Positions 19,861 to 45,758 of a stretch of DNA of 64,000 nucleotides are shown here, piece after piece. Source of the stretch: Prorocentrum cordatum (Eukaryota); assembly GCA_963575745.1 (NCBI GenBank), contig CAUYUJ010000280.1:1-64000 (forward strand), given 5' to 3'. A program made the translations under genes and the position numbers. A model generated the notes under the pieces. It was not told the origin of the DNA and searched no databases. It saw nothing but the letters and a program-made list of their open reading frames with translations. How positions within the stretch are numbered: position 1 is the stretch's first letter; every line of letters starts with the position of its first letter.

Positions 19861-20920
19861 CGCCATGGTAGTGCGCAGGCAAGCAACAGGAAAGCTAAAG
19901 GCCAGCTGCCTGGTAATACTAACGCGAGCGAGAAGAAGGCTAAACTCAATCCCAAACGAGTCAAACGTAAGCTAGAGGTAACACAGTACTGAGAAACTGC
20001 GGGCGATATGATCTTGGCGAGCTAACAGCAACCCGAATCGAAGCTACATGCAAGCAGCAAGCCAGCTCAGGGCAAGCCACGGTCAATATGACAACAAATC
20101 AAGCATGCATTATGAAGACAATGCGCGGGCTATGTCAAAACAAGAGAAGGACATGCGAAACGCATTGGCGTAATAGGTCTGAAGTGATCCACGGACACGG
20201 TTCAAGACAAGCAGTCGGCTTCCCCGAGGAACCAGAGAAGTGTGGCCGAAGGAGACAGGAGTATTGTTCCCAAGAGCCCTTATTCGGCATGGCTTCCTGC
20301 ACAATGTAAGTCAGGAGTCTTCGAGCAAAGCCAGTTAGGAGTTAGTGGCACGTTGTGAAACAATCGCAAGGTGCTGGATTGATTTGCGACCCAGTCGCAT
20401 CCTTGAGGGCTTCGTCGAAGATTCTACGAGCCTCATGAGCGGTTCGGGTGGACTTTTGGGGGGTCCGTCTTGAGCTCTCTTTGGGGTATATGAGGCAGGT
20501 GGCCTTTGGGCCACGTCTTGGGCCATCCTGGGGCCGTCTTGGACGTCGTGGGAGCGCCTTTGCCGCTCCCTGGGCCGTTGGGACCGCTGGGAAGGCGCCT
20601 GGGGGGTGGGATCGGGGGGGGGCTGCGGCTCGCGGCTGGGCGGCACCAATCAGGCGATCGCAAACATGGATTAAAGGGGGCGTGGAGTATCGACGGGTCC
20701 CGTTTCCATGGGAAATCGCGGATTTCCGCCGCCGAACGACGCCGCACTTGCCGCATGTTGGAGAGGGTACCTCCCCCGATCCATGGATTTGGCGACCGCG
20801 CGCCAAACCCATGGATCGCTAATCCATGCTTGCGCGCCCCCGAGTGAAGGAAAGGGGGGCTGAGCCACAGAAGCACGGCCAGTGAGCACAGAAGCATCGT
20901 GCGATGCCACTGCGTGCCAG

Positions 20921-21921
20921 GAGGGCACGGTGGCGGATACACCTGGGGCTCTAGCAACATATTGGTGAGCTCGGATCACCGGTGTGTCGTCGAACGGCGA
21001 GTCGATCACCTTCTGCGGAGGCACAGGGTGGCTGTGGACTTACCTCAAATGAAAGAGGTAATGCAATACTGGTTCGCCGGCATCGGTCTCCACCACCGCG
21101 GCCTCTTGCCCATTGCCCGCGAGGTGACGGAGATTCTCGCCCAGGAAGGCTTGCTCGTTGTGCTCTTCGCGACCGAGACGTTTGGCCTGGGTATGAATGT
21201 GCCTGGCCGCGCTTGCTTCTTCCACTTCAGGCCTGGCTTTCCCCTCGTAAAGTTCGACGGCAATGGAAAGCGCCCCATGCAAGCCAAGGAGTACTGCCAG
21301 ATGAGTGGACGTGCAGGACGCCGAGGTCATGATGAAACTGGCCACGCCATCGTATACCTCGACACCCGCGTTGACGCCGAGCATGTCAGGCGCGTCATGT
21401 GCAGCCCGCCCGAGCCACTGGAGAGTGCGTTCCGCGTTTCCCCGAGCACAGTGCTCGAGTCCACTGGCCACTGTACCCGCACGTGGATGGACTGGCTCTG
21501 CTCGCAGACCCTGCTCACCTTCCAGGGCGGCGGGGGGCATCTCATCGACGACGTCTCGAACATGTACGCCCTCCTGTGGGAATGCAACCTGCTGTCTTCG
21601 AATGGTCGGTCTCGAACCCGCAAAGGTCGAGCTGCATCCGTGCTGGATATAGGGAACGGGCTGCTCTTGGTGGAGGTGCTCTATGACCAGGAGGTGCACG
21701 CCTTGCCAGTCCACAAGCTTGTGGGCATGCTTGCCGCGTTCACGATTGAAGAGAGCCATCAGATCAATGATGGACATGCCATGACGGCGGTCCTTGACCT
21801 TGTCGACGAGAAGATTAATCGCCTTCAAGAAGTCTACAACCGTCACAACATTGCTTGGCGAGGCTTCCGGTTGGCGCGCGGCTTCGCGGGTGCAGTCCAG
21901 CGATGGTTGGAGAAGTCCACG
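20921..21921 (+). CDS. Exon 3 of helicase fusion gene (RecA2 motifs V-VI, winged helix, start of helical bundle; arch absent)
   Basis: LPQM...GIGLHHRGLLPIAREVTEILAQEG, VLFATETFGLGMNVP (V), KFDG, EYCQMSGRAGRRGHD (VI), PLESAF, KGRAA...LLLVE. Acceptor CAG|G at 20920/20921 (alternative TAG|C at 20954/20955). Donor ACG|GA at 21921/21922. Confidence 0.88.
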
Positions 21922-22298
21922 GACTTCACCGCTACGCCACCCCCTCCCACAGTAAACCCATTGAAACTAGCGTCCCAAAACCTTCCCGACCACCAATTTC
22001 CCCAAACAGTGCTTGCACTTGGGGGTTCCGTCTTGGTTTCTGAGACATCTCATGGGTGTTTCGAGAACTCGCCACGTTCCGGCTTATTTCATGAGGCTTC
22101 GCCACGTTCCGGCCCGTGGCAGCTCGTTGCCGGTCGTCGCCGCCTGTGGGGGTGTCCCGAGGATTCGCCGCGGTCCGGCCCGTTGCAGCTCGTTGTCGGT
22201 CGTTGCCGCCTGTGGGGCTGTCCCGAGGATACTCGCCGCGCTCCGGCCCAGAGGCGCCTGGAAGCCTCCCAAACGGTGCTCGCACTCAGGGGTTCTTA

Positions 22299-22486
22299 CG
22301 GCAGGTTCGTGTCGTGTCGACCGGCGGCGACCCCAGCGTGGGCGTTCAAGGTTGAACGCCGCCGGCGACCCAGAATCGGTCGATGCTGAAGGATCGCACG
22401 TCTCGGAAAGGGCCGATCGTTCAAGGTGGAACGATCCCCGAGGTGACAGAAACCGTCGCTGGGGTCGACACGACGCGAACCTGCCG
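22299..22486. mobile_element. Tc1/mariner-like MITE family C copy 1 (TA TSD)
   Basis: TA-CGGCAGGTTCGTGTCGTGTCGACC ... GGTCGACACGACGCGAACCTGCCG-TA: 24-bp TIRs flanked by TA. Confidence 0.8.
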
Positions 22487-23051: not shown

Positions 23052-23982
23052 TAACTTGCACAACATATGGTAGCGTGCACCGCTCGGCTTGCGACGCATG
23101 ATTTACATCACGCAGCTCACACAGCATGAGCTAAACCACGCAGCATGTGCAACATGGCTCCCATCACGTAGCTCACACCCCATGTGTTACACAACATGGC
23201 TCACACCATGTAGCTCGTAGCACATAACTTACACGACATAGCATACACCACACAACGTACACATTACACACCATCTAGCTTATTTTCATAGCATGGCTCA
23301 ACTCACATGGCTTACACAGCATAGCCTGCATCACATAGCCCACACATGAAAGCCTGCACAACATAGCTTGCATCGCATAGCCGGCACAACATAGCTTACA
23401 TCGCATAGCTGGCACAACATATCCTTCACCCCACTGGGCAAGAACTCACTTTTGGGGTTCCACGCTGGCTGATAGCAGGCCCCCTCTCATTTTCAATGCT
23501 TTATTATCCCAAATAGGCTTGCCCTCTAGGAGTCCGAGCTCGAACCCTACGGCTTGGTCCGTTGCCCTGCCCCCCCTCTTAATTCCTGTGCTCCCCCACG
23601 AATTCCTATGGCTCTGCCCATGCCTATGCCCATCCCCCCCTTTTTTTCCAATGCCCCCCCCCTCCTTATGTATGCTTGCTTGCTTGATTGCGCGCTCGTT
23701 TGCTTGCTTGCTTGCTTGCACGCTTGCTTGCACGCTTGCTTGTTGCTTGCACGCTTGCTTGCACGCTTGCTTGCACGCTTGCTTGCACGCTTGCGCGCTT
23801 GCTTGCTGAGTTGTGGATTCCAAGCAGGCTCGATTCCTCTGATTCCGTGATTTGAGTCGTCTAATCGATTCGGAGTCAACGCTGGCTGACATCCTGACCC
23901 TTGCATCTCCAAGCCACTTTCCCTTCCATGCCGTTCCCTTCGAGTGGCCGCCGTGGACGAGGGCTCTCTTGGCAGCCCGGAG

Positions 23983-26900
23983 GACTTCGACGCCCTGCTG
24001 AAGGACTCCAGGCTGGAGGCAGGCATCGCGGTGCGCGGGCTGCAGCGCCTGGACAGGCTGCTGGGGCAGGCCTCCGCAGCGCTCGGAGAGCTTCAGCTGA
24101 CGACCCCGCGGAGCTCGCTGGACGCCCTGCGCCCAGTTCTGCGGGCACGGGCCCCGCTGGCGTTCATGCCGTCTCTCCTGCACGACGGCCTCGCCGAGGA
24201 GGAGGAGGCGGCCAGGCTGCCCGGGGAGGATCAAGTCTTCACGGAGGCGCCGCCCGAACTGCGGCGCAGGCCGGACGGTGAAGGCTGGGCTCCAGACAGG
24301 GATGGGTGGTTTGTGGAGCTGGACCCTCATGAGGTGGGCTTTTCGCACAACACGATCAGCTGCAAGTTTTCGGACGGGCGGCGTCTGGAGGATACCGTGG
24401 CCGAGCTGGTGGAAGATGAAGAGCTCTGCTACCAACTGGCGAAGGACATGCGCGTCGTCTACTTCCAAGGGAGGCCGTATACACTCGGGAACCGCAGGCT
24501 GGCCGCATTCCGCCTCGCATGCCAGCGCGCACCCCAGAGGCTGAAAAAGCTGTGCTTCCAGCTCGCAGACGAGGCGGCTGCGCTCAGGTGGAAGTGGTGG
24601 AGCAAGTTCAGCACGGGCCACTTCCTCGGCATGCGGGCCGTTGTCAACACCACGGGTTGCGTTGTCGGCGAGTCTGCTGCGGCCACGAGGTTCTGGCCGA
24701 GCGGTGAAGATGTGCCCGGGCGCGGCTACGCCGCTGCGGCGGCCCAGTGCGCAAGGATGAACCTCGAGCTCCCCCCACCTGCGACGAGCCAGCCACTCAC
24801 GCTGATCCTGCCTGACGTCCTGTCTGGGCAAAGCATCCGTATCTCCGAGGCCACTCTCGCCAGGGCCATCTGCGGGCTGGACCCCCCAGAGAAGCGCAAG
24901 CCAACAAAGGGCCGGAAAGCTGCTCCAGACCTGGACTTGCGAGAGCGGCCAGCAAGGCGGTTCGGCATTTCCACATTGGCCAAGATCCCTGCTGTGTTTC
25001 CAACGTTGGAGGCCTGGACCACAAGCTTCGGCGGGCCCCTCCTTGCAGAAGTGGAGGAGCAGATTTTGGGCCGTTGCTCCGACGATGCGGAGGGCAAGGC
25101 GAAGGAGCCGATCGTGTACAGGAAGGCGTGGCTTTCAGGAGTTCGCGACGAGGAACGCGACGATATCGAGGACCAGGCGATCAACCATGAAGATGGCGAC
25201 GTCTTCAAGATTGATGCAAACGGAGTGACTCTGTCGAATCTGAAGGATTGGCTCCCTTTCTCTGTCTTGCACCTGCGGATACCAGGCATGGCATGTCAAT
25301 TTGGTATAGTCGCCCCTCAGGGCTCAAATCAGGAAGGGTCTCTCTACCTACGTACCAGGAAGCTGCCTGTCCTGCAGTCACTCGTTCAGCAAGCGGAGCA
25401 ATCAGTCGAGGTAAAGGCTGGTTTCGTTACTTGCATCCTGACGGAACTCCGCATTTGCCGAGCGATGGAATCACCGAGCCAGCATTGCCCGGTGTTCTGG
25501 CCCTCCATTGCGGGTGCAGACACGCAAAAGATTTCCCTCCGAGCCCATGGGACACAGCAGGCACTAGTCAGTGACATTCGTCAGCACGAGGCGGCCTTGC
25601 AGAGGTCCAGCCTCAACCAGCCACAGATAGGTTCTGTGCTGACGACCCTGCGAAGAAAAGAAGGGGTGGTGCTCATCCAGGGCCCGCCAGGCACGGGCAA
25701 GACAAAGACACTCTCCGTGCTCCTTGACCGGTGCGTGGCGGTACGGCAGCGGTGCCTCGTGGTGGCCCCGACCAATACCGCGGTTCAGGAGTTGCTCAGT
25801 CGAGTTCTTGAGCATGTTGCTGCCTGGCGCATCGGCTACGTGGCCCACCCGCTTACTGCTGAGGTGGCCCGGGATCACGACTTGGCGTGCGTACTAGCGG
25901 ACCACCGCGTAGCTCAGTTGCACGAGCTCGCAGCCGATGTTGCATGGACCGTCGATAACTGGTTGCAGGCGCCAGCGAGGCAACCACCAGACTCCGACGA
26001 TGAGTACGCCCCGGGGAAGGCAAAGGGCAGGGGCAAGCTGGGGAAGGGCAAGGTCAAGGGGAAGTCCGCGGGTGAGGAGCGCCGTGCCAGGCGTGCGCAG
26101 CGTCGGGAGGACTGGGGCTCGAAGCTGTTTGCGCATGCCGCCCAAGTTCGTAGCGAGCTGCGCCACTTCCAGAAGACTCTCGAGCGGTGGCGCTCCCAGC
26201 TCCTCCTTCTGCCGCCAGAAGATTCTGGAGTCTACCTAGATCCAAACCGGGAGCCGAGCCCGGCGGCGTCGGCGATCGAGCAGCGCGAGGAGGAGGCCAT
26301 GGGCCAATTCGGCAGGCTCCGGGACCAGCTTCAGAGCTCGCAGCTCCCCGAGGAGCTGAGCCTCCTGCACCGCCGTCTGGAGGCGAACGTCCCCCGGACG
26401 TGGGCAGAGGCAGTCGCAAACCCGGAGAAGCTGTACGAGTGGCTGCAGGGCTTCGTCCGCCGTCCCACTTGCAACGGCTACAAGGGGGGCCTCGGCTGGG
26501 GCTGCGGCAGCCTGGGCAGGTCGGGCAAGGGCAGGGCGCCGTTCGGTCCGGGTAGCAAGGGCTCGGCCGCGGCTGGTCCCAAGGGCAAGTGCAGCAGTGA
26601 TGTGGAGAAGGCAACGGCCGTCCTCAGAGCACTTCGCGAGGCTGCGCGTGACGCCGCCAGCGTCAAGCCGATGGACCTGCAGGACGCGCTGCTCCGGCGG
26701 TGCGAGCTCATTTTCTGTACCGCGGCGGTCGCAGGTCGTGGTGCCGTGCAGAGGCAGTGGGTGCAGACAGTGCTCATCGACGAGGCCTGTCAGCTTGCGG
26801 AGGCCGTCACGATTGTGCCCCTCCGCTCCAGCATTCAGCGCCTCGTGCTTGTTGGCGACCCGCGCCAGCTCCCTGCGTTGGTGCTCTCGCGCGCCGCGGA

Positions 26901-27471
26901 GCACGCTTCGTATGGTCGGGGGATGTTCCAGAGATTGGTCTCCATTGGTGAGCGCCCCGAGGTCCTCGAGATCCAGTACCGCATGCACAGAGACGTCGTT
27001 GCTTGGCCAGCGAACCATTTCTACCGCCTCGACGGTATACAGCTTCGCACCGGGCCATCGGTCATCGCTCGGGACGAGCTCCAAGCACCACCGCTGTTGG
27101 GCCCGGCTCGTTTCGTGCATGTCAGTGGCGTCGAGCAAAGAAGTGGCCACTCGTGGCTGAACGAAGACGAGGCCGCCCTGGTTGTTGAACAGGCGAGGTT
27201 GCTTCGCGCCCTGCACCCAAGCTTGAGTATCGGCGTGATCACGCCCTACCTGAGCCAGGTGAAGGAGGTGCAGTGGCGCTTGGCGGACGCTGACCTCACG
27301 GACGTTCAAGTCAGCTCCGTCGACGGCTTCCAGGGTGACGAGCGCGATGCGATTCTTGTTTCTCCCGTGCGCTCGAACTCGAAGCAGCACATCGGATTTG
27401 TTGGCGACGCGCAGCGCCTCAACGTTGCCGTAACGAGGCCCAAGCACTTTTTGTGGATCTTCGGCAACAAG
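23983..27471 (+). CDS. Exon 4 of helicase fusion gene: DSHCT, ParB/Srx-like domain and Upf1/Sen1(DNA2/NAM7)-family SF1 helicase
   Basis: DFDALLKDSRLEAGIAVRGLQRLDRLLGQ...LAFMPSLL resembles the Mtr4/Ski2 C-terminal FxxI...EGxxxRxxxRLxELLxQ...IxFAxSLYL. Next is FSHNTISCKFSDG...YTLGNRRLAAF. Then LNQPQ, IQGPPGTGKT (25681), VAPTNTAV, IDEACQ, VGDPRQLP, QYRMH, GVITPY, SVDGFQGDE, RLNVAVTRPK. Acceptor GAG|G at 23982/23983; donor AAG|GA at 27471/27472. Confidence 0.9.
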
Positions 27472-29403
27472 GAGAGAGAGAGAGAGAGAGAGAGGGTAAA
27501 CCGCAAGTTCGCAGCGGCACGACAGTGAGCGTTTAGTGCTCGTTTCGCGAAGGGGGGATGTGGGGGGGTTTGGGGCGGGCGGAGGGAGTACAGATTGGAG
27601 CGCGAAGTAGTTCCGATGCCCCCTGCGGCGTGAGTGCCGCCATTGATGTGTGCAATTGTGTGCTCGTGTCTACGATCGCTCCTGTATATGTTTGTGGGCA
27701 TACCTGCGTGCCTGTGAGCAGTGCTGTTACCTGTACCCGTCGGTCGTTGTGTGTATGTATGTTTGTATGTCTGTCTGCATGTCTGAGTGTCTTTATGCCT
27801 GCATGTCTGTATGCCTATTTGTCTGTATGCCTGTACGCCTGTATGTCAGCATGTCTGTATGTCTGTATATGTCTGTATGTCAGTATGTCTGTATGTCGGT
27901 CTGCCGGTATGCCGGTATGTCAGTATGTCGGTATGTCTGCATTTCTGCATGAACTTATGTATGTATGTATGCACGTGTACATGTGTATATGTACACATAT
28001 AGATGAGGCGTTGAAGTAAGGGCCTCGTCTTCGAGGATCGAAGGGTTTGCAGTCTCTTCTTCGGCGGACGGCGGCAGAAGGCTGGGGGAAGGCGGCAGAC
28101 GTAAAACGAGGCCGCCTCCGCCGGAGGAAGGCCGGCGGAAGCCGGCGGATGCAAGAACTGGCTCCTGGAGAGATGGCAAGGTTCAGGCAAATGGACTCGT
28201 GTGTTCAGTGTGCCCCCTATGCATGCATGTATATGTAAATGTAGATCTCTATGTAAATGCATATGTATATGAATATGTGAATGTAAGTGTATATGTACAG
28301 GTATACGTATGTGCATATGCAAATGTATAACCGGGCTTCCCCCTCTGCCGCCGGCCTCCTTTTTACAATCGCGGGCGGCTGCGCTGGGGCATCGTTGGGG
28401 CCTCTTGGGGTCTCCTTGGGGCTTCTTGGGGGCCTCTTGGGGGTCTCCTTGGGGCCTTTTGGGGGTCTCCTCGTGGCCTCTTGGAAACATGTTGGGTTTC
28501 TTGAGTGTCTCCTTGGGTGTCTCCTTGGGGGCCTCTTGGGGGCCTCTTGAGGCCTCTTGGGGACCTTGTTGGGGCCTCCTTGGGCCATCTCGGGGCGGAA
28601 AGTTCGAGTTTTCGGTTCGTGGACTCCCTCTTGGGCCGCTCTGGGGACCGTCTTAGGGCCCTTTTGGGCCGTCTGGGGCGCCTCTTGGACCGTCCGTCTT
28701 GGGGCCCTCTTCGGCCGTCTTCGGGCCGTCTTGGGGCCTCTTAGGCCGTCATGAAGGCTTCTAGGGCCGTCGTTGGGGCGATCTTGGGAACCTCTTGGTT
28801 CGTCTCGGAGCGTCGGAAAGCCGAAAAGGCGAGAAGGCCAAAAACCTTCAAAAACGGTAGGACAAGATTTGATTGTTGCTTCGTGGGGCCCTCTTGGGAG
28901 GCCTCTCGGAGGCCTCGGGGGCCGTCTTGGGAGCATCTTGGGCCGTCTTGGGGCCATCGTGTGACATCTTGGGGCCATCTTGGGCCGTCATGGCCTCCTG
29001 AGGCTCCCTGCGGAGCCTCGTCGGGCAATATTGGAGGCCTCTCGGGCCGTTCTGGCCCCGCGGTGTCGTCACCATGAGAATCCTCGGGTGGCCCGGAGTA
29101 GCCTGGATATGAGGTTCACGCCCCCCGGTTGGCTGCTTGGTGGCGCGGCGGGGCCCCTTATCAGGCAATAAACAGAAGGCAGGAAACAGGACTGGAGAGA
29201 CATAAGGCCAAACAACAAATGACAGCACATAACACATGACAGCAGGCCGCACACATCTTCGCAGCCTTGCGCCCCCGGAGGGGGCCGGCGGATATGAGTG
29301 TATATATTTACAAACATACATACACATATGTGTATATATAACTATATAGAGATATGCATGTTTGTGTATATGTATGTACATGTAAATATATGTATACGTA
29401 TAC

Positions 29404-37179: not shown

Positions 37180-37620
37180 ATAACAACTTCTGAAACTGCT
37201 GTGAGCGGTTGCGGCGAACGTGCGCCGCGATCGGGCCAGCGCCACGCTTTGATAACGGCCCGCCCTCCAGCCGCGAAGCCTCTGCGAACCTTTAAGGCGA
37301 ATGCGCGCGGCGCTGAGGCGAGAACCACACTGTGAAAACGGTCCGCCCTCCGTCCGCGAAGCCCTCGCGAACTTTTCGGGCGAATGCGCGCGGGCCCCTA
37401 AGGCGAGCACCGCACTGTGAACACGGCCCGCCCTCCGTCCGCGAAGCTCTCGCGAACTTGTCGGGCGAATGCGCGCGGCGCTAGGGCGAGAGCCACATTT
37501 TGAACACGGCCCGCCCTCCGTCCATGAAGCCCCTGCGAACTCTGACGACGACTGCACGCGTCGCGAAGTCGAGAGCCACGCTTTGAGAACGGCCCGCCCT
37601 CCGTCAGTGAAGCTGCTGCA
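37180..37620. repeat. Degenerate ~85-90-bp tandem repeat
   Basis: ACGG(C/T)CCGCCCTCC...GAAGC...GCGAAC recurs about 5 times. Confidence 0.65.
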
Positions 37621-38308
37621 AACTCTCGGCTTCGGGATCACAGATGCTGGTGAAGTCTCGGGCGAAACGCCAGGCCCGCCCGACCGACCCGTCTCGGGGT
37701 GCGACAGGGAGGAGTTGTTTTTACAAACGAATATAAGGAGGAGGAAGAGAGGGGGGGAGGTGAGGAGGAGGAGGAGGAGGAGGAGGAGGAGGAGGAGGAG
37801 GAGGAGGAGGAGGACGACGACGACGACGACAACCGACGAGGAACGGATGCTTCCGAAGGTGCACAGGCATTATGGTGCACACAGGCATTGAGGTGGTGTG
37901 AGGCAAACTGTTGCCGATGTTGCACGAGTCGCACGCAGGCGGGGTGGTGCACATGCGTTGTGATGTACACAGGCGCAGTGGTGCACGCAGGCACTCTGGT
38001 GTACACAAGCGCTGTGATGCTCGTGGCTGCTGTGGTGTTTCTGGGCATTGCATTGTGCACCGGTTTTTTTTGTGCACGCAGGCGCCGTGTCGCCGTGGCG
38101 AACACGGCTGCTGTGGCACCGCTGTGGTGTGGACAGGCGCTGTGGTGTACACAAGCGCCTTGGTGCACGCAGGCGTTGTGTACATTAACGCTGTAGGTCG
38201 CACGACCGCTGTGATGTGCGCAAGTGCCGTAGTGTACGACAACGGTCTGGTGCACGCAGGCGCTGTGGTGTACACAGGCGCTGTTCCGCGCACGGCTGCA
38301 GCGGTGCG

Positions 38309-38330
38309 TCCGTAGCCATTTTGGCTCAAG
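38309..38330 (+). other. Perfect dinoflagellate spliced-leader sequence (genomic, retroposed copy)
   Basis: TCCGTAGCCATTTTGGCTCAAG equals DCCGTAGCCATTTTGGCTCAAG, 22/22. It is followed by AT rather than a GT donor, so it is not an SL RNA gene. Confidence 0.95.
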
Positions 38331-38464
38331 ATGCCACGTCTCCCGCGAGGCGGCGTGGACACCGCTAGTCTGCGGCCATACCCTGCAGTTGTTTCCTCGG
38401 TCGAGCTGCGCGCTGCCGAGTGGTCTCGCTCCCCCCAGTTTTGCTCCAGGACATCTGGCCAGCG

Positions 38465-39508
38465 ATGTTTTTCTGGAAGTGCGGTGGGTGCGGTGTCTTC
38501 AACCCGCAGGGGCAGGCCAAGTGCGCGTTCTGCGAGCAGGGGCGGCCCTGGCGCTACTGGTCGCAGGGTCGCCGCCGCGGCGCGGGCGGCAATGGCGGCG
38601 GTTCGGGCGGGGGCAACGGCGGCCAGGGTGGTCGGAAGCCCTCGGCGCCGTGGGCTCGGGGTGCCGACGGCCAGCGCCCCACCACCAACGCGTGGCACCC
38701 GCCGCGCGTGGACGACAAGCAGCTCCAGTGCGCGGTCGAGCTGTCTGCCGAGAAGTGGGAGGCCGCCAAGGAGCTCTTTACGCAGGTGCAGGTCGACGAG
38801 GTCGAGGCCAGGAGGGCTGCCCGTGCCAACGGCCTCTGCGCCGCCCGCGATGCCACCGCTGAGCGCGAGCGCGTCGGCAAGAAGCTCGAGGCGGAGGAGG
38901 GCAAGGAGCAGCGCATGGCGGCCGACCTCGCGGACCGCCTGCTCAAGCTGGACGCCCAGCAGGCGCTCGTTCGCGCCCTCCGCGAGTCGCGCGAGGAGGC
39001 CCGTGCGGCTGCCGCCTCGGCCTCCCCTGGCGTGGCCCAGCCCCCCTCGGCGGAGCTGCTCGAGAAGGTCACCGCCCTTAGCACCTCGGGCAAGGACCCC
39101 GCGACCCTCGTCATGGAGCTCCTCGAGCAGGTCGCGGCCTTCGCCATGGCCTCAGCTGCGCCGCCAGCTGCCGCCTCCGCCGACGTGCCCATGGGTGGCG
39201 CAGGCGGAGAGGCGGCTGCCCAGCCGCAGCAGCCCGCAGTCCCACCGGTTGCGGCCCAGGGCGGGCTCAAGCCCGAGGTGGACGCCAACCGCCTCAGGGC
39301 GGTCCTGTCTGCGGCAGACCCTGCTGGCCTTCTTTACCACACTACTGACGGTGAAGAGCGCAAGCGGCTCGGCGACGCGATGGCCCTCTTGCGCGAGCAC
39401 GTCGGCAAGAAGTTTCGCGGCGGCCCTGGGCCCGCAGGCTCCGCCGACGGCCCAGCAGCAGCTGCAGCGCCCCCCGCGGCTGCAGCCCCCGCCGCCCCCC
39501 AGAGCTAG
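38465..39508 (+). CDS. LINE ORF1: RanBP2-type zinc finger, Gly-rich segment and coiled coil
   Basis: MFFWKCGGCGVFNPQGQAKCAFC fits W-x-C-x2-C-x3-N-x6-C-x2-C. Followed by a GGNGGGSGGG tract and an E/A/R-rich helical region. Intact 347 aa. Confidence 0.85.
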   Translation: MFFWKCGGCGVFNPQGQAKCAFCEQGRPWRYWSQGRRRGAGGNGGGSGGGNGGQGGRKPSAPWARGADGQRPTTNAWHPPRVDDKQLQCAVELSAEKWEAAKELFTQVQVDEVEARRAARANGLCAARDATAERERVGKKLEAEEGKEQRMAADLADRLLKLDAQQALVRALRESREEARAAAASASPGVAQPPSAELLEKVTALSTSGKDPATLVMELLEQVAAFAMASAAPPAAASADVPMGGAGGEAAAQPQQPAVPPVAAQGGLKPEVDANRLRAVLSAADPAGLLYHTTDGEERKRLGDAMALLREHVGKKFRGGPGPAGSADGPAAAAAPPAAAAPAAPQS

Positions 39509-39509
39509 G

Positions 39510-42500
39510 GGGCAGCCAGCCGACGGCAGCGTCTGGCGTGGCCTCTCCTTGAATGCGAATGCGTTCGTTCGCCGCGCTGGACCAGCTTTTGTGCAAGGGC
39601 GACCTCAGGCAGTGCGACTTCGTCGCCGCCCAGGAGACTCACCTCTCCACCGATCGCGCTGGCGAGGTTGCAGCTCGACTGGGCCGCCAGGGCTGGCAGG
39701 CCCTCGCCGCCCCCGCCGCCGACGCGGGCGGCGGCCACCCAGGCCATGGAGGCCTGCTCAGCCTCGCCCCCAGGCACCACGGCCTCGGGCGCTTCGAGGT
39801 GGACGGGCTGCGCGGCGGCGTGCTTGTCCCAGGTCGTGCGGCCATCGCGCGCCATAGCGGCGTCATCAGAGGGGTCTTCGTGTGGGTCAACGTGTGCCTC
39901 CACACCGCCGAGGGCCTCTCGGCCGCCAACCTCCTCATCCTGGACGCGGTGAGGTCGGCCGTGCAGTGCCTCGGCCCCCCCTTCATCATCGGCGGTGACT
40001 TCAACATGGCGCCGCAGAAGCTGTCCGAGGCCACTTGGCTCGGGCAGATCAACGGTGTGGTCATCGGCCCGACGGTCGGCGCCATCAGGCCCTCGGAGCG
40101 CGTAGTCGACTTCTTCGTGGTCTCGCCGTGCCTCGCTTCGGCCACCGCCGCCGCTCTCCTCGACTGGGACTTCGGGCCGCATCGGCCAGTTCTCCTCGAG
40201 GTTGCCACCCAGAAGGTCCAGCCCTGGATCCAGGTCGTGCGAGCGCCCAAGCCATTCCCGCGGCCGCTCCCTCTGGGCTGCTGCTCCCAGGACTACGGGC
40301 CAGCCTGGGCCGACGTCCACTCCAGGATGACCAGCGCTGCCTCTGTGGACGAGGCTTGGAAGGAGGTCATCAGGATGACTGAGACGGTCTTGATCGATCG
40401 GTGCGGCCTCAGCGAGCAGGGCAGCAATAACTGCGTCAGGGAGGAGCCGCCCACGCTGCAGTGGGTGCTCGCCAGCAAGCCCAACCTCCCCAGGCACCCC
40501 GAGCTGGATTCCAGCGCACAGTGGATCCCCCAGTGGGTCTTCGAGTCGCGCAGGGCCGCCTCGCTGAGCACCGCGCGCTCGCGCCTCGACGGGCTGCTCA
40601 GCCAGCGCAGGCTCAGCGCCAGGCTGCCGCCCAACACCGACGGGGACATGGCCGACCAGCAGCGGCTCAACGTGTGCACGGCGCTGGCGCTCATCGGCAG
40701 CGTCTCCGATTCTTTCGACGTGCCTTCAGCAGGGTGCCTCGCGGAGCTCGTCGGCGCCATTTCCAAGCAGCGCATCGAGGGCGCCATGAAGTTGGCGAGG
40801 AAGCGCTTCGACAGCTGGATCGACCAGCAGCACGCGCCGGGCGGCAAAGGGCTGCGCGCCTTCACGCGCGAGCCCATGCCTTGGCACCCTCGCCCGCTGG
40901 CCGCCGACGCGCCCGACGGCGAGGACGGGCCGCCGCTGCTCGTCGAGGAGTGGACGCGCCATTGGAACGTCGGCGCCCCCGTGGCGCCGCCGCGGTGGCC
41001 CGCCGACCTCGGCGAGCGGCCTCCGCGGCCATCCGTCGCCCGCATGCGCGAGGTCTTCCGCGGCGTCGCCGCCGCCGCGGGCGCGAGCTGCGACGCGTTC
41101 TGCCCCCGCGACTTCGACGCCTTCGACGACAGCGGCGTCGAGGCCAACATCGGCCTGCTCCTGAGGGTCGAGCAGGAGTGCTGCTGGCCCCCCTTCATCA
41201 GCAAGCTCGCGTTCATCAGCAGGAGGGAGGGTGGCGGAAGGCCCATCGCCCTCCTCGCCGCCCTGGTCCGCGCCCACGGGCGCCCGCGGCGAGACGTCGC
41301 GGCCGCCTGGGAGAGGGCCCACCCCAGGGCTTTCTGGTGGGCCTGCGCAGGCAAGGCCTGCGAGCGCGCGGTCTGGCAGCAGCTGGCTTGGAGCGAGCGG
41401 CTCAAGGCCAAGCGCGGCGAGATGCCCGACCTTGACTGGAGCTCGGTGGCGGTCATCCTCGACTTGTGGAAGGCATTCGAGGAGCTGAGGCACCTGCACC
41501 TGATCGACGCCGCCGTGCAGCACGACTTACCTGTCTGGGCGGTGAAGCTCCAAATCTCCTTCTACCGTTTGCCTCGGGCGCTGGAGCTCAACGGCGCGGC
41601 CTCGGACCTCACCGAGGTGCAGCGGACGGTCCTCGCTGGGGACATGTGGGCCCCACTTTCTTCATGAAGCTCATTCTCCTCAGCCCACTCGACCGCGCAC
41701 TGCGGGCCTCGCCGAGCATCGCCCCGTCGGTCGTGGTCGACGACCTGGTCGTCCAGCGGGTTGGAGGCAGCAGGCGCGCGACCGACGACCTCGTCGCCAG
41801 CGTCGCCAGCGTCGTCGGCGAGCTGCGCACGGTGGACATCCACGTCGCCACCAAGAAGTCGCTCCTGCTGGCCGGCACGCCCGCAGCGGCCACGACGCTC
41901 GAGAGCCGCCTGGCGCAGGCAGCCAAGGCGCTGCCAGTGGGGGCCGCCCGCAGACTTGGGGTGGACTACGCCCTGGCTGGGCGGGCGCCCAGGCTCGTCC
42001 GTCGGCGTCGTCTCAAGCAGGCCGCGCGGCGGTTCCCTCGCCTCAGGAGGCTCTTGGGCCCAGGTCGCCGCCGCTGTGTCGCGGCGAGGAACTTCAAGCA
42101 GGGAGTCGAGGCCAGCTTCGCCTACGGCGTCTGCTGCACGGAGCTCAGCGACACCGACCTCAACGTCGCGCGCGCTGGCGTTCAGGTCGGTCCAGATCAG
42201 GCCCTCTGGCAAGAGCCGCACCGCCGTCCTCGCCACCACCGGCAGGGACTACGACCCCGTGTTCAGGGCGACGCACGGCCCAGCGCGCACGCTGCACAGG
42301 GCAGTTTGGGAGCAGTGGCTCCCCAGGCAGGCCCTGGACAAGGTCTTCGCGGCGGCCCTTGCCTCTTCGGGCAGCTGGACAGACTGCCGCGGCCCCGTGG
42401 GGGTCGCTCCCCCCTCCATGCGCCGCGTGGGCTGGGAGGCGGCTTCGCTGGACGCGTGGACCACGCGCGACGGCTTTCACCGCGGCGTCAGCGACGCGAG

Positions 42501-44520
42501 CCCGTGGCTCACCAAGAAGCTGCTGGGCCGCAGCTGCGAGAACTGGCAGGCGAAACAGCTCGGCAAGCACGACGCCTCCTGGCTCGACGTCGGCATCAAC
42601 GTCGGCCAGCTTCGGCGGTGGACGGCCAGCGGTCGTGGCACCTCCCAGGAAACGCGGGGCTGGCCCAGCCCCAGCAGCGAGCAGCGCGGCTACCTCAGGT
42701 CCTGCATCGTCGACGGCCAGTGGACCAACGCCAGGACGCACGGCAACAACCCGAGGTGCGCCCCCTCGGACCTCTGCGAGCTCTGCCCTGACCAGGTCGG
42801 CGACATCTGGCAAATGCACCTCTGCTGCAGCGCCATTCAGGACCACGGCCTCAGCCTCCCGCGCGAGATCGCCTTGTTGCTGCCGCAGAAGGACAACGCG
42901 GTCGTCAAATACATCGTCGGGCGCGTCCTCGTTCCAGCCCCACGGCTCCAGTGGAGGTCTCCCGGCGGCGGCTTCCTCGACCACCTCCGCTGGTGCTGCG
43001 GCGAGCCAGGCGAGCCCTTCGTCGGCCAGCCGCTCTACTGCGACGGCTCGCTGTGCGACGCGCAGCTTGCCGAGTGCCGTGGTGCGCAGGCCGCGGCAGC
43101 GGTCGTCGAGCTTCCTCCAGGCACCGAGGAAGTCGACCCAGGCGCTGGCAGCCGCACCAAGGCGCTGGGCGCGCCTCTGGTTGGGCCCTGGCAGAGCATC
43201 GAGGGCGCGGAGCTGCTGTCGGTGCTCATCGTCCTGCGGCGCGCCGCCCCGCCCATCGAGCTGCACTGCGACGCCAGCTTCGTCGTCGACGGCATCAACC
43301 TTCGGGGCGAGGCCCGCGCCACGCTGGCGTCTTCAGCGTGGGGGCATCCCTGGCGGCAGGCGTGGCAGGCGCTCCACGACTTCGGCGGCGTCGGCCCCGC
43401 GGGGCTCACGATCGTCAAGATCAAGGGCCGCGCCGCCCTCGCCCACGTCGCCCGCGGCGTCATCACGAGGACGCAGCACCGCGGCAACTACGAGGCCGAC
43501 CACGTCGCAGGCGGGATCGCCTACCACCTGCGCGCCCCCATGGCCGAGAGGCAGCGGCAGCTGCGCGCCCAGCTCTTCGTCGACGGCGCCACGCGCTGGG
43601 CGGCCACGGCCGGTGCCCCCGCGGCTGCCGACAGGCTCGACAGACCCGCGGCTATGTGGCCCGCGACGAGGCCAACAAGGACCGCCTCCATCTCGCCGAG
43701 CACTCGTTCGGCACGCTCGCCTCGGGCCACTGGCGCTGCACGGTTTGCCTGCGCACGGCGCGCACCACGAGGTCGAAGCAGGTGCTGTGTCGGACCCCGT
43801 GCGCCCCCAAGATCGCCTCGGCGGCCGGGGGGGCGGCGCCGTCCAGCTTGGCAGCAGGCGCGGCCCTAGCGGCGGCGGCGGCGGCGGCGACTGCTGCAGC
43901 CCCCGACGGCGCCGACGGCCGACCAGGAGAGCCCGGCCCAGATCGGAGCCAGGACCCCACGCCGAGTGCGGCGGGGCAGGCGCCCGCGACCGCAGGCGCG
44001 CTCGGCTCGGCCCGCGGCCGGGGCCCAGCGCCGAGCAGGGGGGGGGGGCAGCCGCCCGCCCCCGCGCGGGCCACCGCGACCCAGGGCGCCACCGCGGCCA
44101 GCGGCCAGGTCGGGGCCGGACCCCCCCCAGCGAGCAGGCCTCGGAGGATGCCGCGAGGTCCCGATCCCCACGACTCGGCCGCCAGCCGCGCCAGCCGTCG
44201 GCGGGCCCAGCGGTGCCCCTTGGGGGCGAGCCTGACGACGAGGACTGCCCGCCGCGGGCGCGCGACGCCTTCGGCCACGTCGCGCAGCGCGCCTTCGGCT
44301 ACGCACTGTGCGCGCGGTGCCACGCCCACGCCAGGGAGCACCTCGGCAGCGTCAAGGCCCTGGCATCCCAGTGCGCCCCACACGTGGGCGAGGCGGGGCG
44401 CGTCCGACGTCTTCGGGCTGACCGCATTCGCAGAGGCCAGCACCCCGCCAGCTCGGCGCGCCTCGTGGACGGCGCGGCGGCTGCCGAGCGCGGCCGCCCC
44501 CGCCGCGCGGCCGCGCTAGC
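39510..44520 (+). pseudogene. LINE ORF2 (AP endonuclease, reverse transcriptase, Cys/His finger, RNase H, C-terminal CxxC motifs), multiple frameshifts
   Basis: APE: LSLNAN, AAQETHL, IIGGDFNM, VDFFVVS, PHRPV. RT: GGRPIALL, ILDLWKAFE, VVVDDL, RRLG. Finger: CELC...HLCC. RNase H: LYCDGS, GAELL, LHCDAS, GNYEADHVA. Also WRCTVC and LCARCH. Frameshifts near 39565, 41650, 42180, 43650 and ~44150. Confidence 0.88.
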
Positions 44521-45758
44521 CGCGCGGCCCTTCGGCGCCACCACCGCGCCCCCAGCGCCTCGACGGCCCCGCGTCGTCGGCGGCTGCCCCGCGCCGCGAC
44601 GGCCCACGCGTCGTCGGCGGCTGCAGGCCTCCGCGCGCCCGTGGCGCGCGCGGGGGGCGTCGGTCAGCGCCGTCCTCCTGGGGCTTTGCGAAAAAAAGAG
44701 GCTGCAGCGGTGCATAGGGGCACAGTGGTGTACGCAGGCGACGTGGTGCACGCGCTTGCCCTTGGTGTGCAGAGGTACTGCGGTGTACACGGGCGCTGTG
44801 GTGCACGCAGGCGTTGTCGTGTACACAGGTATGTCGTGCACACAGGCCGCTGCTGGCGCGCCTCGGGGGTGCACGCCGCAGCCGCCGTTACTGTTACTGC
44901 CCCCCGCCGACCCTCCACCCCCCCGTAACACAAAATACCCCATGTGGACAACATGACGATCTCTTTGTCCATTTCTATTCACCAATCCTCTACGACTCAG
45001 GATGTCTGGGTGGCTCTCCGAACATCCCCTTTTGTGTTGGCTGGTTAGAATGTTCTGCTTCGTGATTTGTGGATCACAGCGCATTGTTCGCGATTCGTTC
45101 GTAGTTAATTGCCAGTGTTTTGTACGCCGTGGCGTGTGACCCGTCATTTGTGATTTTCGCCCCTTGGCCTGCGGTTTGTGATCCGTGGCTGGTGTGTGGC
45201 TTGTGGCACAGGAGGTTTCGTGGCTTGTGGCTCGCTGTTAACGACTCTTTGTTCGGGCTGGTTCGTGGATCTTGGTTCTTGGCACTTGCTTCATGATTTG
45301 CGCCTCGTGGCGCGTGGTTCTTGGTCGGCTCGTTGTTGGTGGTCCCTGGTTCTCGCCTGAGATTTGTGGCTGGTGGTGCGTAAATTTCAGTTCGTGGGTA
45401 GTGATTGCCGGTTCTCGTTTCGTGCAGCTTATTTCGTGTCTCGTAATTGGTGCCTCCTGTTTGATTGATGGTTCGTAGCTCATTGCTTGTGATCCGTGGC
45501 CTGTGCTGTACTGATCGATATGCCTCATTCCATCATCGGTTGCTTCGCCGGCGCCCCGTGCGCTGGCTGGAATTTCTGTGTTTTCGGCTGGTGCTTGGCC
45601 GTGGGCTTCTCGCGGGAGCCGTTGGGATTGCCCAAGTCGGGTGGCGGCCAACGCAGTTCTTATCAGTGCAGGTGCGTCTGGGGAAGGTGCATCCTCGCAT
45701 GCCTCTTCAGTGACACCTCTTGTGTGAGAAGCTGCCAAGCGTTCCCCCTTCCCCCGAG

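What the first reader, a model, noticed from the sequence alone, without database searches (positions are those of the whole stretch)
38294..44713. Full-length LINE whose 5' end is an intact spliced leader plus one extra G
Seen: TSD (GGCTGCAGCGGTGC, 38294-38307), then G (38308), then perfect DinoSL (38309-38330), 5'UTR, ORF1, ORF2, A-rich tail and TSD (44700-44713). The SL abuts the TSD, so it was part of the copied RNA. A weaker SL-like remnant (CCAGTTTTGCTCCAG, 38435-38449, 12/15) precedes ORF1. Established: dinoflagellate mRNAs receive this SL by trans-splicing, and an extra 5' G on full-length retroposed copies is attributed to reverse transcription of the cap. Inference: this LINE family uses host SL trans-splicing to cut a capped unit-length RNA out of read-through (here sense intronic) transcripts, needing no internal promoter. 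It may be the type of RT that generates SL-relic retrogenes. This differs from SLACS/CZAR/NeSL elements, which insert into SL RNA genes.
Basis: partly seen in the sequence, partly recalled or inferred. Interest (0 to 1): 0.85.

Follow-up and report, generated by a model that had tools for sequence, protein, structure and literature searches.

The report
LINE copy starting with spliced leader
A dinoflagellate jumping gene (a LINE) was copied back into the genome from an RNA that carried the host's trans-spliced leader and cap, which suggests these elements borrow the host's mRNA-capping step to make their transposition template.

Summary
A 14-bp target-site duplication (38294-38307 and 44700-44713) encloses G, a perfect 22-nt DinoSL, a 134-nt 5' UTR, ORF1, an APE-RT-RNase H ORF2, and a short A-rich tail. 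The insertion sits in an 18-bp satellite. The satellite's phase continues across the site only if one copy of the duplication is kept, so the duplication is real and the leader was part of the copied RNA. This copy is full-length in extent but dead: ORF2 has at least two frameshifts. The 'weaker SL remnant' is barely above chance.

New support: one of 25 distantly related LINE loci from metagenomes (L009, about 29% identity in ORF2) also starts with G plus a perfect DinoSL. It also has a statistically solid older leader relic 185 nt further in, so it passed through at least two leader-capped rounds and captured upstream flank.

Not shown: that most full-length family copies start this way, the intronic position, expression, the absence of a promoter, or a role in making retrogenes. 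No whole genome or RNA run was available.

None of the papers I searched or the passages I read describes this for dinoflagellate LINEs, although related hints exist. Verdict: a real feature, and a new variant of a known kind.

The parts
38294..38307 (+). 5' copy of the 14-bp target-site duplication, GGCTGCAGCGGTGC
   Evidence: Satellite phase test.
38308..38308 (+). Extra G between the duplication and the leader, read as a copy of the cap or a cap-dependent addition
   Evidence: the base after the 3' duplication copy is A, so this G is not part of the duplication. L009 has the same G at position 74. The cap reading comes from passages in PMC11702581 and PMC4038843.
38309..38330 (+). [quoted passage not shown]
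   Evidence: The leader consensus is as printed in PMC7245778 and PMC5585692.
38331..38464 (+). 5' UTR of 134 nt. It starts with an out-of-frame ATG and holds a weak leader-like remnant at 38435-38449.
   Evidence: Remnant test: 240 of 5000 shuffles reach its score.
38465..39508 (+). ORF1, 347 aa, intact. It has an N-terminal RanBP2-type zinc ribbon followed by a charged, helix-like stretch.
   Evidence: Pfam Zn_ribbon_RanBP, E=0.0014, below the curated cut-off.
39553..41640 (+). ORF2 part 1 (coordinate frame mod3=1): APE endonuclease and the N-terminal half of the reverse transcriptase
   Evidence: Pfam Exo_endo_phos, E=1.6e-4, 21.9 bits, below the cut-off. tblastn alignments to P0001-3 and to L009 ORF2.
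41640..42175 (+). ORF2 part 2, shifted to frame mod3=0: reverse transcriptase catalytic region (VVVDD)
   Evidence: In run X1, 2 of 2 contigs lack 2 bases at 41651, which is where the frame changes.
42100..43566 (+). ORF2 part 3, back in frame mod3=1: thumb and linker, a Cys motif, and the RNase H domain (about 43000-43510)
   Evidence: tblastn to P0001 residues 876-1352, which include its Pfam RNase_H domain.
43512..44519 (+). C-terminal Cys-rich region of ORF2 and the 3' UTR start. The frame is uncertain (weak match in mod3=0) and GC is 77-81%.
   Evidence: P0003 C-terminus, E=3e-6. Composition.
44690..44699 (+). Short A-rich tail, GAAAAAAAGA
44700..44713 (+). 3' copy of the target-site duplication
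37950..38293 (.). 18-bp satellite array, left part: the target of the insertion
   Evidence: Very abundant in run X1.
44714..44852 (.). 18-bp satellite array, right part

Best explanation
This is a retrotransposed copy of a non-LTR retrotransposon. It has an ORF1 with a zinc ribbon and an ORF2 with APE endonuclease, reverse transcriptase and RNase H. Its RNA template was a mature, capped mRNA trans-spliced with the DinoSL.

Shown: the whole unit (G, leader, 5' UTR, ORFs, A-tail) was inserted at one staggered break in an 18-bp satellite, as in target-primed reverse transcription. The cDNA reached the very 5' end of the RNA.

Inferred: the element's primary transcript was made by read-through from upstream, or from a weak start site. 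The host spliceosome joined the 22-nt leader to an AG acceptor just ahead of what is now position 38331. That gave the RNA the cap it needs for translation and a defined 5' end. The same RNA was then copied into DNA.

L009 shows that this can happen repeatedly in a lineage. The new leader can be added upstream of the old 5' end, so a piece of flank becomes new 5' UTR.

The window copy has since lost its ORF2 frame, or was copied from a defective RNA, or carries assembly indels.
For: - Structure and duplication.
- Satellite phase restored only with one duplication copy: 61/144 against 38/162 and 37/144.
- No second copy and no terminal repeats in the window; the only blastn hit is the element itself.
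- Domains: Exo_endo_phos in the window (E=1.6e-4) and in L009 (25.7 bits, above the cut-off). RVT_1 in L009 (E=1.1e-4). RNase_H in the relative P0001 (E=1.6e-9). A family profile hits R2 reverse transcriptase (E=3.8e-4), retroviral RNase H (3.8e-4) and L1 ORF2p (0.03).
- Multi-copy family: 913 contigs of a related organism's DNA run lay on the stretch at 85% or more, an unknown share of them on the abundant flanking satellite rather than the element. There are 2100 representative proteins at E<=1e-3, and the nearest fragments are 73-82% identical.
- Second instance: L009 has G plus a perfect 22-nt leader at 74-96, ORF1 at 396-1718, and an intact ORF2 frame to 7290. Its older relic at 282-302 is reached by 1 of 5000 shuffles.
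- An extra G at full-length L1 junctions is attributed to the cap (passages).
- The element is co-oriented with the upstream + strand host genes.
Against: - Only two elements show the pattern. L009 has no detectable target-site duplication: its 5' flank and its last 300 bases share no 7-mer. Its 3' end may lie beyond the contig.
- The other 24 of 25 related metagenome loci have no leader on the LINE strand (at most 4 mismatches in 21). Of the 5 loci with more than 2 kb upstream of the ORF2 match, only 1 has it. For the other four, the organism and the 5' completeness are unknown.
- No RNA evidence: no RNA run was listed.
- The 5' ends of other family copies were not visible (tables were cut; no genome).
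- This copy cannot have mobilised itself in its present state, because of the frameshifts.
- In 852 kb around 152 other DNA-encoded leader sites there was no LINE of this clade. Leader sites are therefore not generally LINE 5' ends.
Confidence: 0.8

Rival explanations
1. One-off event. The family normally transposes from transcripts that start at its own internal promoter and carry no leader. This copy, and L009, are rare retrocopies of trans-spliced read-through by-products, in the same way that any host mRNA becomes a leader-tagged retrogene.
For: - 24 of 25 related loci lack the leader.
- This copy is coding-dead, as expected for an RNA mobilised in trans.
- Retrogenes with leader relics are common in dinoflagellates (PMC5585692 and PMC12014239, passages).
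Against: - Two unrelated LINE lineages (no DNA similarity; ORF1s unalignable) show the same G plus leader start.
- L009 carries two successive leaders, which means repeated rounds.
- Most of the 24 negative loci do not reach far enough upstream to be informative.
Confidence: 0.25
2. The DNA-encoded leader works as a portable core promoter. Its TTTTGG provides the TTT(T/G) motif proposed for dinoflagellate promoters, so each new copy arrives with a start signal, like an internal LINE promoter. Read-through would then not be needed. This is compatible with the main explanation for how the leader was acquired; it differs on how copies are expressed next.
For: - The hypothesis, and the conservation of TTT(T/G) in leader relics of retrogenes, are in PMC5585692 (abstract and passages).
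- The leader is intact in both elements.
Against: - In L009 the newer leader was added 185 nt upstream of the older one, so that transcript began upstream of the old leader and not behind it.
- No promoter assay exists for this.
- If transcription started downstream of the encoded leader, the progeny would lose it unless it was re-spliced on.
Confidence: 0.2
3. Template-switch chimera. The reverse transcriptase reached the 5' end of a leaderless LINE RNA and jumped onto a spliced-leader RNA or another mRNA's 5' end, as in U6/L1 chimeras (mechanism recalled from general knowledge, not from a call).
For: The junction cannot be told apart from a splice junction without the parent locus.
Against: - The leader is complete and ends exactly at its exon boundary, with no intron bases of the leader RNA and no bases of another mRNA behind it.
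- The same exact boundary is seen in L009.
- A jump would rarely land precisely at the exon end twice.
Confidence: 0.04
4. The element inserted next to a pre-existing leader (a leader RNA gene, as for SLACS/CZAR/NeSL, or a retrogene relic), or the junction is an assembly artefact.
For: Leader relics occur elsewhere in the window, at 7303-7323.
Against: - The duplication lies outside G plus the leader, and the satellite phase closes with one copy.
- The leader is followed by ATG, not by a GT intron.
- No RNA family was detected.
- The endonuclease is APE-type.
- There is no N near the element; the only N run is at 60636-60735.
Confidence: 0.02

Closest known systems
DinoSL-tagged retrogenes of dinoflagellates (mRNA recycling; Slamovits and Keeling 2008 as cited in the papers read; Song et al. 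2017, PMC5585692)
   Same: A DNA-encoded spliced leader at the 5' end marks reverse transcription of a mature trans-spliced mRNA. Successive relics mark repeated rounds, as in L009.
   Different: - Here the copied RNA encodes its own endonuclease and reverse transcriptase, so this is retrotransposition and not retroposition of a host gene.
- The leader is full length with an extra G and a clean target-site duplication.
- The relics are not adjacent: the newer leader lies 185 nt upstream of the older one in L009.
- Song et al. noted the GO term 'RNA-dependent DNA replication' enriched among leader-tagged genes but read it as gene activity.
[quoted passage not shown]
L1Tc/ingi (Pr77 promoter and ribozyme) and R2 (HDV-like ribozyme): LINEs that free a unit-length RNA from co-transcripts
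   Same: They face the same problem: a LINE in a genome with polycistronic or read-through transcription needs a defined, translatable 5' end.
   Different: - Those elements use an internal promoter that yields unspliced transcripts (PMC1874656 title and abstract, PMC8190864 abstract) or a self-cleaving ribozyme (recalled, not from a call).
- Here no ribozyme was detected, and the 5' end is the host's trans-spliced leader.
SLACS / CZAR / CRE / NeSL-1: LINEs that insert into spliced-leader RNA genes
   Same: A LINE physically joined to spliced-leader sequence.
   Different: - Those elements interrupt the leader gene at a fixed site and carry a restriction-like endonuclease (recalled, not from a call).
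- Here the complete leader is part of the mobile unit, the target is a satellite, and the endonuclease is APE-type.
Spliced-leader-bearing retrotransposons suggested in Schistosoma mansoni (PMC5832876)
   Same: The authors found six genome-encoded leader exons merged to transposable elements. [quoted passage not shown]
   Different: - A different phylum and a different leader.
- The authors could not exclude assembly chimeras and showed no duplication or cap base.
- Here the insertion boundaries are resolved to the base.
Human L1 full-length insertions with an extra 5' G
   Same: An untemplated G at the 5' junction, attributed to the mRNA cap (PMC11702581, PMC4038843). Both also have a target-site duplication, an A-tail and an APE plus reverse transcriptase ORF2.
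   Different: - L1 transcripts start at an internal promoter, whereas here the first 22 nt come from another RNA by trans-splicing.
- ORF2 here has an RNase H domain.
- The nick site is not T-rich.

Membership tests
APE-type non-LTR retrotransposon (LINE) | Reverse transcriptase of the non-LTR type | tested here: met
   - Family profile A2 hits R2 reverse transcriptase (E=3.8e-4) and L1 ORF2p (E=0.03) in the PDB.
- RVT_1 in L009 at E=1.1e-4, below Pfam's cut-off.
- The window piece itself gave no Pfam reverse-transcriptase hit; it aligns to the relatives by tblastn.
APE-type non-LTR retrotransposon (LINE) | N-terminal apurinic/apyrimidinic-like endonuclease | tested here: met
   Exo_endo_phos: window E=1.6e-4 (21.9 bits; cut-off 24.5). 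L009 scores 25.7 bits, above the cut-off.
APE-type non-LTR retrotransposon (LINE) | Target-site duplication and 3' A-rich tail, with no terminal repeats | tested here: met
   A 14-bp duplication, an A7 tail, and only a self-hit in blastn against the window.
APE-type non-LTR retrotransposon (LINE) | Placement in a named clade (L1, Tx1, RTE, I, Jockey and others) by reverse-transcriptase phylogeny | not testable with these tools
   No reference set of LINE reverse transcriptases was available. A single-sequence search of the PDB found no LINE.
LINEs that insert into spliced-leader genes (SLACS/CZAR/NeSL) | Insertion at a fixed site inside a spliced-leader RNA gene | tested here: not met
   The leader is complete and lies inside the duplication. 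It is followed by ATG and not by an intron. The target is an 18-bp satellite. No RNA family hit.
LINEs that insert into spliced-leader genes (SLACS/CZAR/NeSL) | Restriction-enzyme-like endonuclease (feature recalled from general knowledge) | tested here: not met
   An APE-type domain is found instead.
DinoSL retrogene (retroposed host gene) | DNA-encoded leader relic upstream of the coding sequence | tested here: met
   Perfect 22-nt leader 134 nt before ORF1.
DinoSL retrogene (retroposed host gene) | The copied gene does not itself encode endonuclease or reverse transcriptase (definition in PMC5585692) | tested here: not met
   It encodes APE, reverse transcriptase and RNase H.
LINEs with 5' ribozyme processing (R2, L1Tc, RTE) | HDV-like self-cleaving ribozyme at the 5' end | tested here: not met
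   No Rfam match at E<=1 in 37500-45500 other than a chance snoRNA hit. Divergent ribozymes could still be missed.

The most novel reading that the evidence does not exclude
Dinoflagellate LINEs of this clade have no fixed promoter or 5' end. They live inside the unidirectional host gene arrays and are transcribed as passengers. They are turned into capped, translatable, unit-length RNAs by spliced-leader trans-splicing at whichever acceptor lies upstream. Each round can therefore capture a piece of flank as new 5' UTR, as in L009. The same endonuclease and reverse transcriptase, which copy leader-capped RNA right to the cap, would be the long-sought machinery behind the thousands of leader-tagged retrogenes.
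Probability: 0.3. Interest if true: 0.8.

Novelty: new variant of a known kind. Interest (0 to 1): 0.62.

Why it matters
LINEs need a way to make a full-length, translatable RNA wherever they land. The known solutions are internal promoters, 5' ribozymes, and insertion into host genes such as rDNA or leader genes. A LINE whose 5' end is supplied by host trans-splicing would be a further solution, fitted to a genome where mRNAs are cut out of long transcripts.

It also bears on an open question stated in the dinoflagellate literature. [quoted passage not shown] The review PMC6050394 favours LTR elements. Here an element of the target-primed type is caught copying a leader-capped RNA to its cap, with duplication and tail, which makes LINEs a concrete candidate.

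On the practical side, leader-based retrogene screens may be counting LINE copies.

Tried and rejected
- Whole genome of the window: not held.
- Earlier notes of this scan, by sequence, by words and by place: nothing.
- Sequencing runs: no RNA holder was listed. There was only one weak DNA holder, X1 (share 0.19), plus two runs of the same study.
- Laying them at 85%:
  - X1 laid 913 contigs, X2 laid 0, X3 laid 14 (mostly the bare leader or short pieces).
  - The tables were cut, and no listed row shows an X1 contig crossing 38308/38331, so the family's 5' ends stayed unseen.
  - Depth was low over 38.4-39.3 kb and 43.5-44.6 kb. Contig depth cannot rank parts, and those parts are the most GC-rich, so I draw nothing from this.
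  - The joints between 38284-38306 and 44720-44783 are satellite-to-satellite, not a true empty site.
- L009 target-site duplication: none found.
- Leader scan of all 25 metagenome loci allowing 4 mismatches, plus best ungapped matches upstream of ORF2. Only L009 has it on the LINE strand. L004 and L023 have weak matches on the opposite strand, and L023 looks bacterial.
- Exact leader search in viral contigs (119 stretches, 80 fetched) and genome contigs (20 stretches): 152 distinct sites. No relative of this LINE lies within 4 kb downstream or anywhere in the 852 kb.
- LINE relatives in viral contigs: none.
- Handle search on L009: record not held.
- Searching the protein collection with the alternative reading frame that runs across flank, leader and 5' UTR, to catch other copies' junctions: no hit.
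- Grep for leader-encoded peptides in the 153 fetched proteins: none.
- ORF1 of the window against ORF1 of L009: no similarity.
- NCBIfam: nothing useful.
- Retrogene-like relic at 7303: no duplication found, only low-complexity matches.
- Literature: five full-text searches and passages in 13 papers. I saw no description of a dinoflagellate LINE that carries the leader. Supplements were not opened, and subscription papers are not in the library.
Full report
**Observation.**
- GGCTGCAGCGGTGC at 38294-38307.
- G at 38308.
- TCCGTAGCCATTTTGGCTCAAG at 38309-38330.
- A 134-nt leader region, then ORF1 (38465-39508), then a long ORF2 region.
- GAAAAAAAGA at 44690-44699.
- The same 14-mer again at 44700-44713.

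The leader core is unique in the window as an exact match. One further site with 3 mismatches lies at 7303, and no shuffle gave two matches. The 14-mer occurs only at these two places at up to one mismatch. The G is not part of the duplication, because the base behind the 3' copy is A.

**Is the duplication real?** The element sits in an 18-bp satellite. Identical words in a satellite could be repeat units rather than a duplication made by insertion, so I tested this in two ways.
- At up to 3 mismatches, only one other unit of the flanking array resembles the 14-mer.
- I removed the element together with one copy of the 14-mer. The 18-nt register of the left array then continues into the right array: 61 of 144 positions match the unit consensus. 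Keeping both copies gives 38 of 162, and keeping none gives 37 of 144, both near background.

The pre-insertion site therefore had one copy. G plus the leader lies inside the inserted unit.

**What the element is.**
- ORF1 (347 aa) begins with a RanBP2-type zinc ribbon (Pfam E=0.0014, below the cut-off), followed by a charged, helix-like region.
- ORF2 starts at 39553 with an APE-type endonuclease (Exo_endo_phos, E=1.6e-4).
- ORF2 aligns along its length with long proteins from public data that carry APE, reverse transcriptase and RNase H (P0001-P0003, about 30% identity).
- A profile of six family members finds R2 reverse transcriptase (E=3.8e-4), retroviral RNase H (3.8e-4) and L1 ORF2p (0.03) among solved structures.
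- There are no terminal repeats and no second copy in the window.

So it is an APE-type non-LTR retrotransposon. Its clade could not be placed, because no reference set was available and a single-sequence PDB search found nothing.

The clade is large. phmmer over 1.84 billion representatives gave 2100 hits at E<=1e-3, 601 at E<=1e-10 and 45 at E<=1e-30. The nearest hits are fragments 73-82% identical, which NCBI names as unnamed products of Prorocentrum cordatum. A DNA run of a related organism laid 913 contigs on the stretch at 85% or more, most of them 85-95% identical. An unknown share of these lie on the flanking satellite rather than the element; ORF2 itself is covered at depth 8-34. This fits a diverged multi-copy family.

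**State of this copy.** ORF2 is not intact.
- The alignments to relatives run in frame mod3=1 to 41640, then in mod3=0 to about 42175, then in mod3=1 again to about 43566. There is a weak continuation in mod3=0.
- At 41651, two of two contigs of run X1 lack two bases, exactly what would restore the frame. The window copy therefore carries an insertion there, by decay or by assembly error.
- A perfect leader and duplication (36 bases in all) do not prove youth. At the indel density seen, zero substitutions in 36 bases is not unlikely (my estimate, not a computation).

**The weak remnant.** The leader-like stretch at 38435-38449 matches 12 of 15 bases. 240 of 5000 shuffles of the 5' UTR do as well. 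I do not rely on it.

**Other copies and relatives.** No genome is held, and the read tables did not show the family's 5' ends. I therefore looked at relatives.

A scan of metagenome contigs with an ORF2 alignment returned 25 loci with 25-37% identity. Exactly one, L009, holds the leader on the LINE strand. Its layout is:
- G at 74 and a perfect 22-nt leader at 75-96;
- ORF1 at 396-1718 (zinc-finger-like motifs and coiled coil);
- an uninterrupted ORF2 frame to 7290 with APE, reverse transcriptase and RNase H.

L009 shares no DNA similarity with the window element, and its ORF1 is unalignable to the window's ORF1. It is therefore an independent lineage with the same 5' anatomy, including the extra G.

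L009 also holds a second, decayed leader at 282-302. It matches 18 of 22 bases with one deletion, and 1 of 5000 shuffles reaches its score. This relic includes the first bases of the leader, so it once was a 5' end. The newer leader was added 185 nt further upstream. The simplest reading is this: a parent copy was transcribed from upstream of its own 5' end, the leader was spliced to an acceptor in the flank, and the longer RNA was copied back.

L009's own boundaries are not proven. No duplication was found, and the contig ends in a 20-nt tandem repeat that may still be element.

**Results against a general rule.**
- 24 of 25 loci have no leader. Of the five with more than 2 kb upstream of the ORF2 match (L002, L005, L009, L016, L022), only L009 has one. 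For the others I cannot tell whether they come from dinoflagellates or include their 5' ends.
- Around 152 other DNA-encoded leader sites from two collections, no LINE of this clade was present at all. That set says nothing about LINE 5' ends, but it shows that leader sites are mostly something else.

**Mechanism.**
- Shown: the RNA that was copied began with the leader, and the cDNA reached its end. The extra G is what full-length L1 insertions show and is attributed to the cap (passages in PMC11702581 and PMC4038843).
- Inferred: the leader was added by ordinary trans-splicing, since it ends exactly at the exon boundary in both elements and is followed by unrelated sequence. A template jump onto leader RNA would have to land on that boundary twice.
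- Inferred from L009: the 5' end is not fixed by an internal start site but by the acceptor used.
- The element points the same way as the three recognisable host genes upstream: a DEAD helicase domain at 1159-2091, DSHCT at 20848-22386, and AAA_11/AAA_12 helicase at 23890-27525, all on the + strand. This fits read-through. An intronic position was not shown.
- A competing idea for the next step is that the encoded leader acts as a core promoter through its TTT(T/G) motif, as proposed for retrogenes (PMC5585692). L009's upstream re-splicing speaks against the old leader having been the start site there.

**Comparison with the literature.** I ran five searches and read passages in 13 papers. 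None describes a dinoflagellate LINE that carries the leader. The nearest statements are:
- Song et al. 2017 found 'RNA-dependent DNA replication' enriched among leader-tagged genes. They took it as a sign that retrotransposons drive retroposition, and said the machinery is unknown.
- The review PMC6050394 favours LTR elements.
- In Schistosoma mansoni, six leader exons merged to transposable elements were suggested to be trans-spliced retro-copies, with assembly chimeras not excluded (PMC5832876).
- Trypanosome L1Tc makes unspliced transcripts from its Pr77 promoter (PMC1874656, PMC8190864; listings and abstracts).

The element is not of the SLACS/NeSL type (see the membership rows).

**Verdict.** The feature is real and its core reading is sound: a LINE copy made from a leader-capped RNA. 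That this is the clade's regular way of life is plausible, and it is supported by a second lineage with two successive leaders. It rests on two elements and no RNA data. Given that dinoflagellate mRNAs are generally trans-spliced, the result is what one might predict. Even so, it appears undocumented, differs from how LINEs in other trans-splicing organisms behave, and gives a concrete candidate for the retrogene machinery.

Noticed in passing
window 7303-7323 (+), with ORF 7280-8428 and an A9 run at 8762: A second, decayed DinoSL (18 of 21) lies in front of a 383-aa open frame with no Pfam hit, with an A-run about 1.4 kb downstream. This is possibly an older leader-tagged retrocopy. No target-site duplication was found.
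   Followed up: partly
Loci L026-L105 (IMG/VR giant-virus MAG contigs), for example L036, L037, L045, L048, L053, L056, L060, L066; L049:4001-4121: Exact DinoSL copies sit directly behind very AT-rich, recurring promoter-like motifs (…TTTTTATTTTTAAATATAAATTTTA then the leader) in front of many different sequences on both strands of contigs binned as giant viruses. In 136 of 151 sites the leader starts with A, and in 112 that A is preceded by T. L049 has three copies 50 nt apart. This could be viral genes with a genome-encoded host leader, or dinoflagellate DNA mis-binned as virus.
   Followed up: no
Loci L145-L164 (bacterial MAGs in genome contigs): Twenty stretches in MAGs labelled as bacteria carry the exact DinoSL. 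This is most likely dinoflagellate contigs binned into bacterial MAGs.
   Followed up: no
L005 about 914-960, L016 about 6176-6250, L022 about 6512-6580: LINE relatives have a 2A-like motif, (I/V)GEA(T/S)NPGP, at the start of the ORF2 region. L009 has a degenerate version (GQAKHPGP).
   Followed up: no
window 37950-38293 and 44714-44852: The 18-bp satellite (unit about GCGCTGTGGTGTACACAG) that received the insertion is extremely abundant in the DNA run of a related organism: summed contig depth is above 1500 in both flank bins.
   Followed up: partly
window 38330 joined to 44249, in one contig of run X1: One contig of the related organism joins the 22 bases of the leader to sequence resembling the element's 3' part from 44249. 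An AG lies 7 nt upstream, at 44241-44242. It could be a retrocopy of an RNA trans-spliced at an internal site, or a chance match in GC-rich sequence. The contig itself could not be seen.
   Followed up: no
window 37212-37626: An 83-bp tandem repeat of about 5 copies lies just upstream of the satellite.
   Followed up: no
window 52183-55700: A long stretch of 9- and 12-nt periodic repeats, open in several frames on both strands.
   Followed up: no
window 1159-2091, 20848-22386, 23890-27525 (all +): Host helicase domains (DEAD; DSHCT of Ski2/Mtr4-type helicases; AAA_11/AAA_12 of Upf1/Sen1-type helicases) all lie on the + strand, as in a unidirectional gene array.
   Followed up: partly
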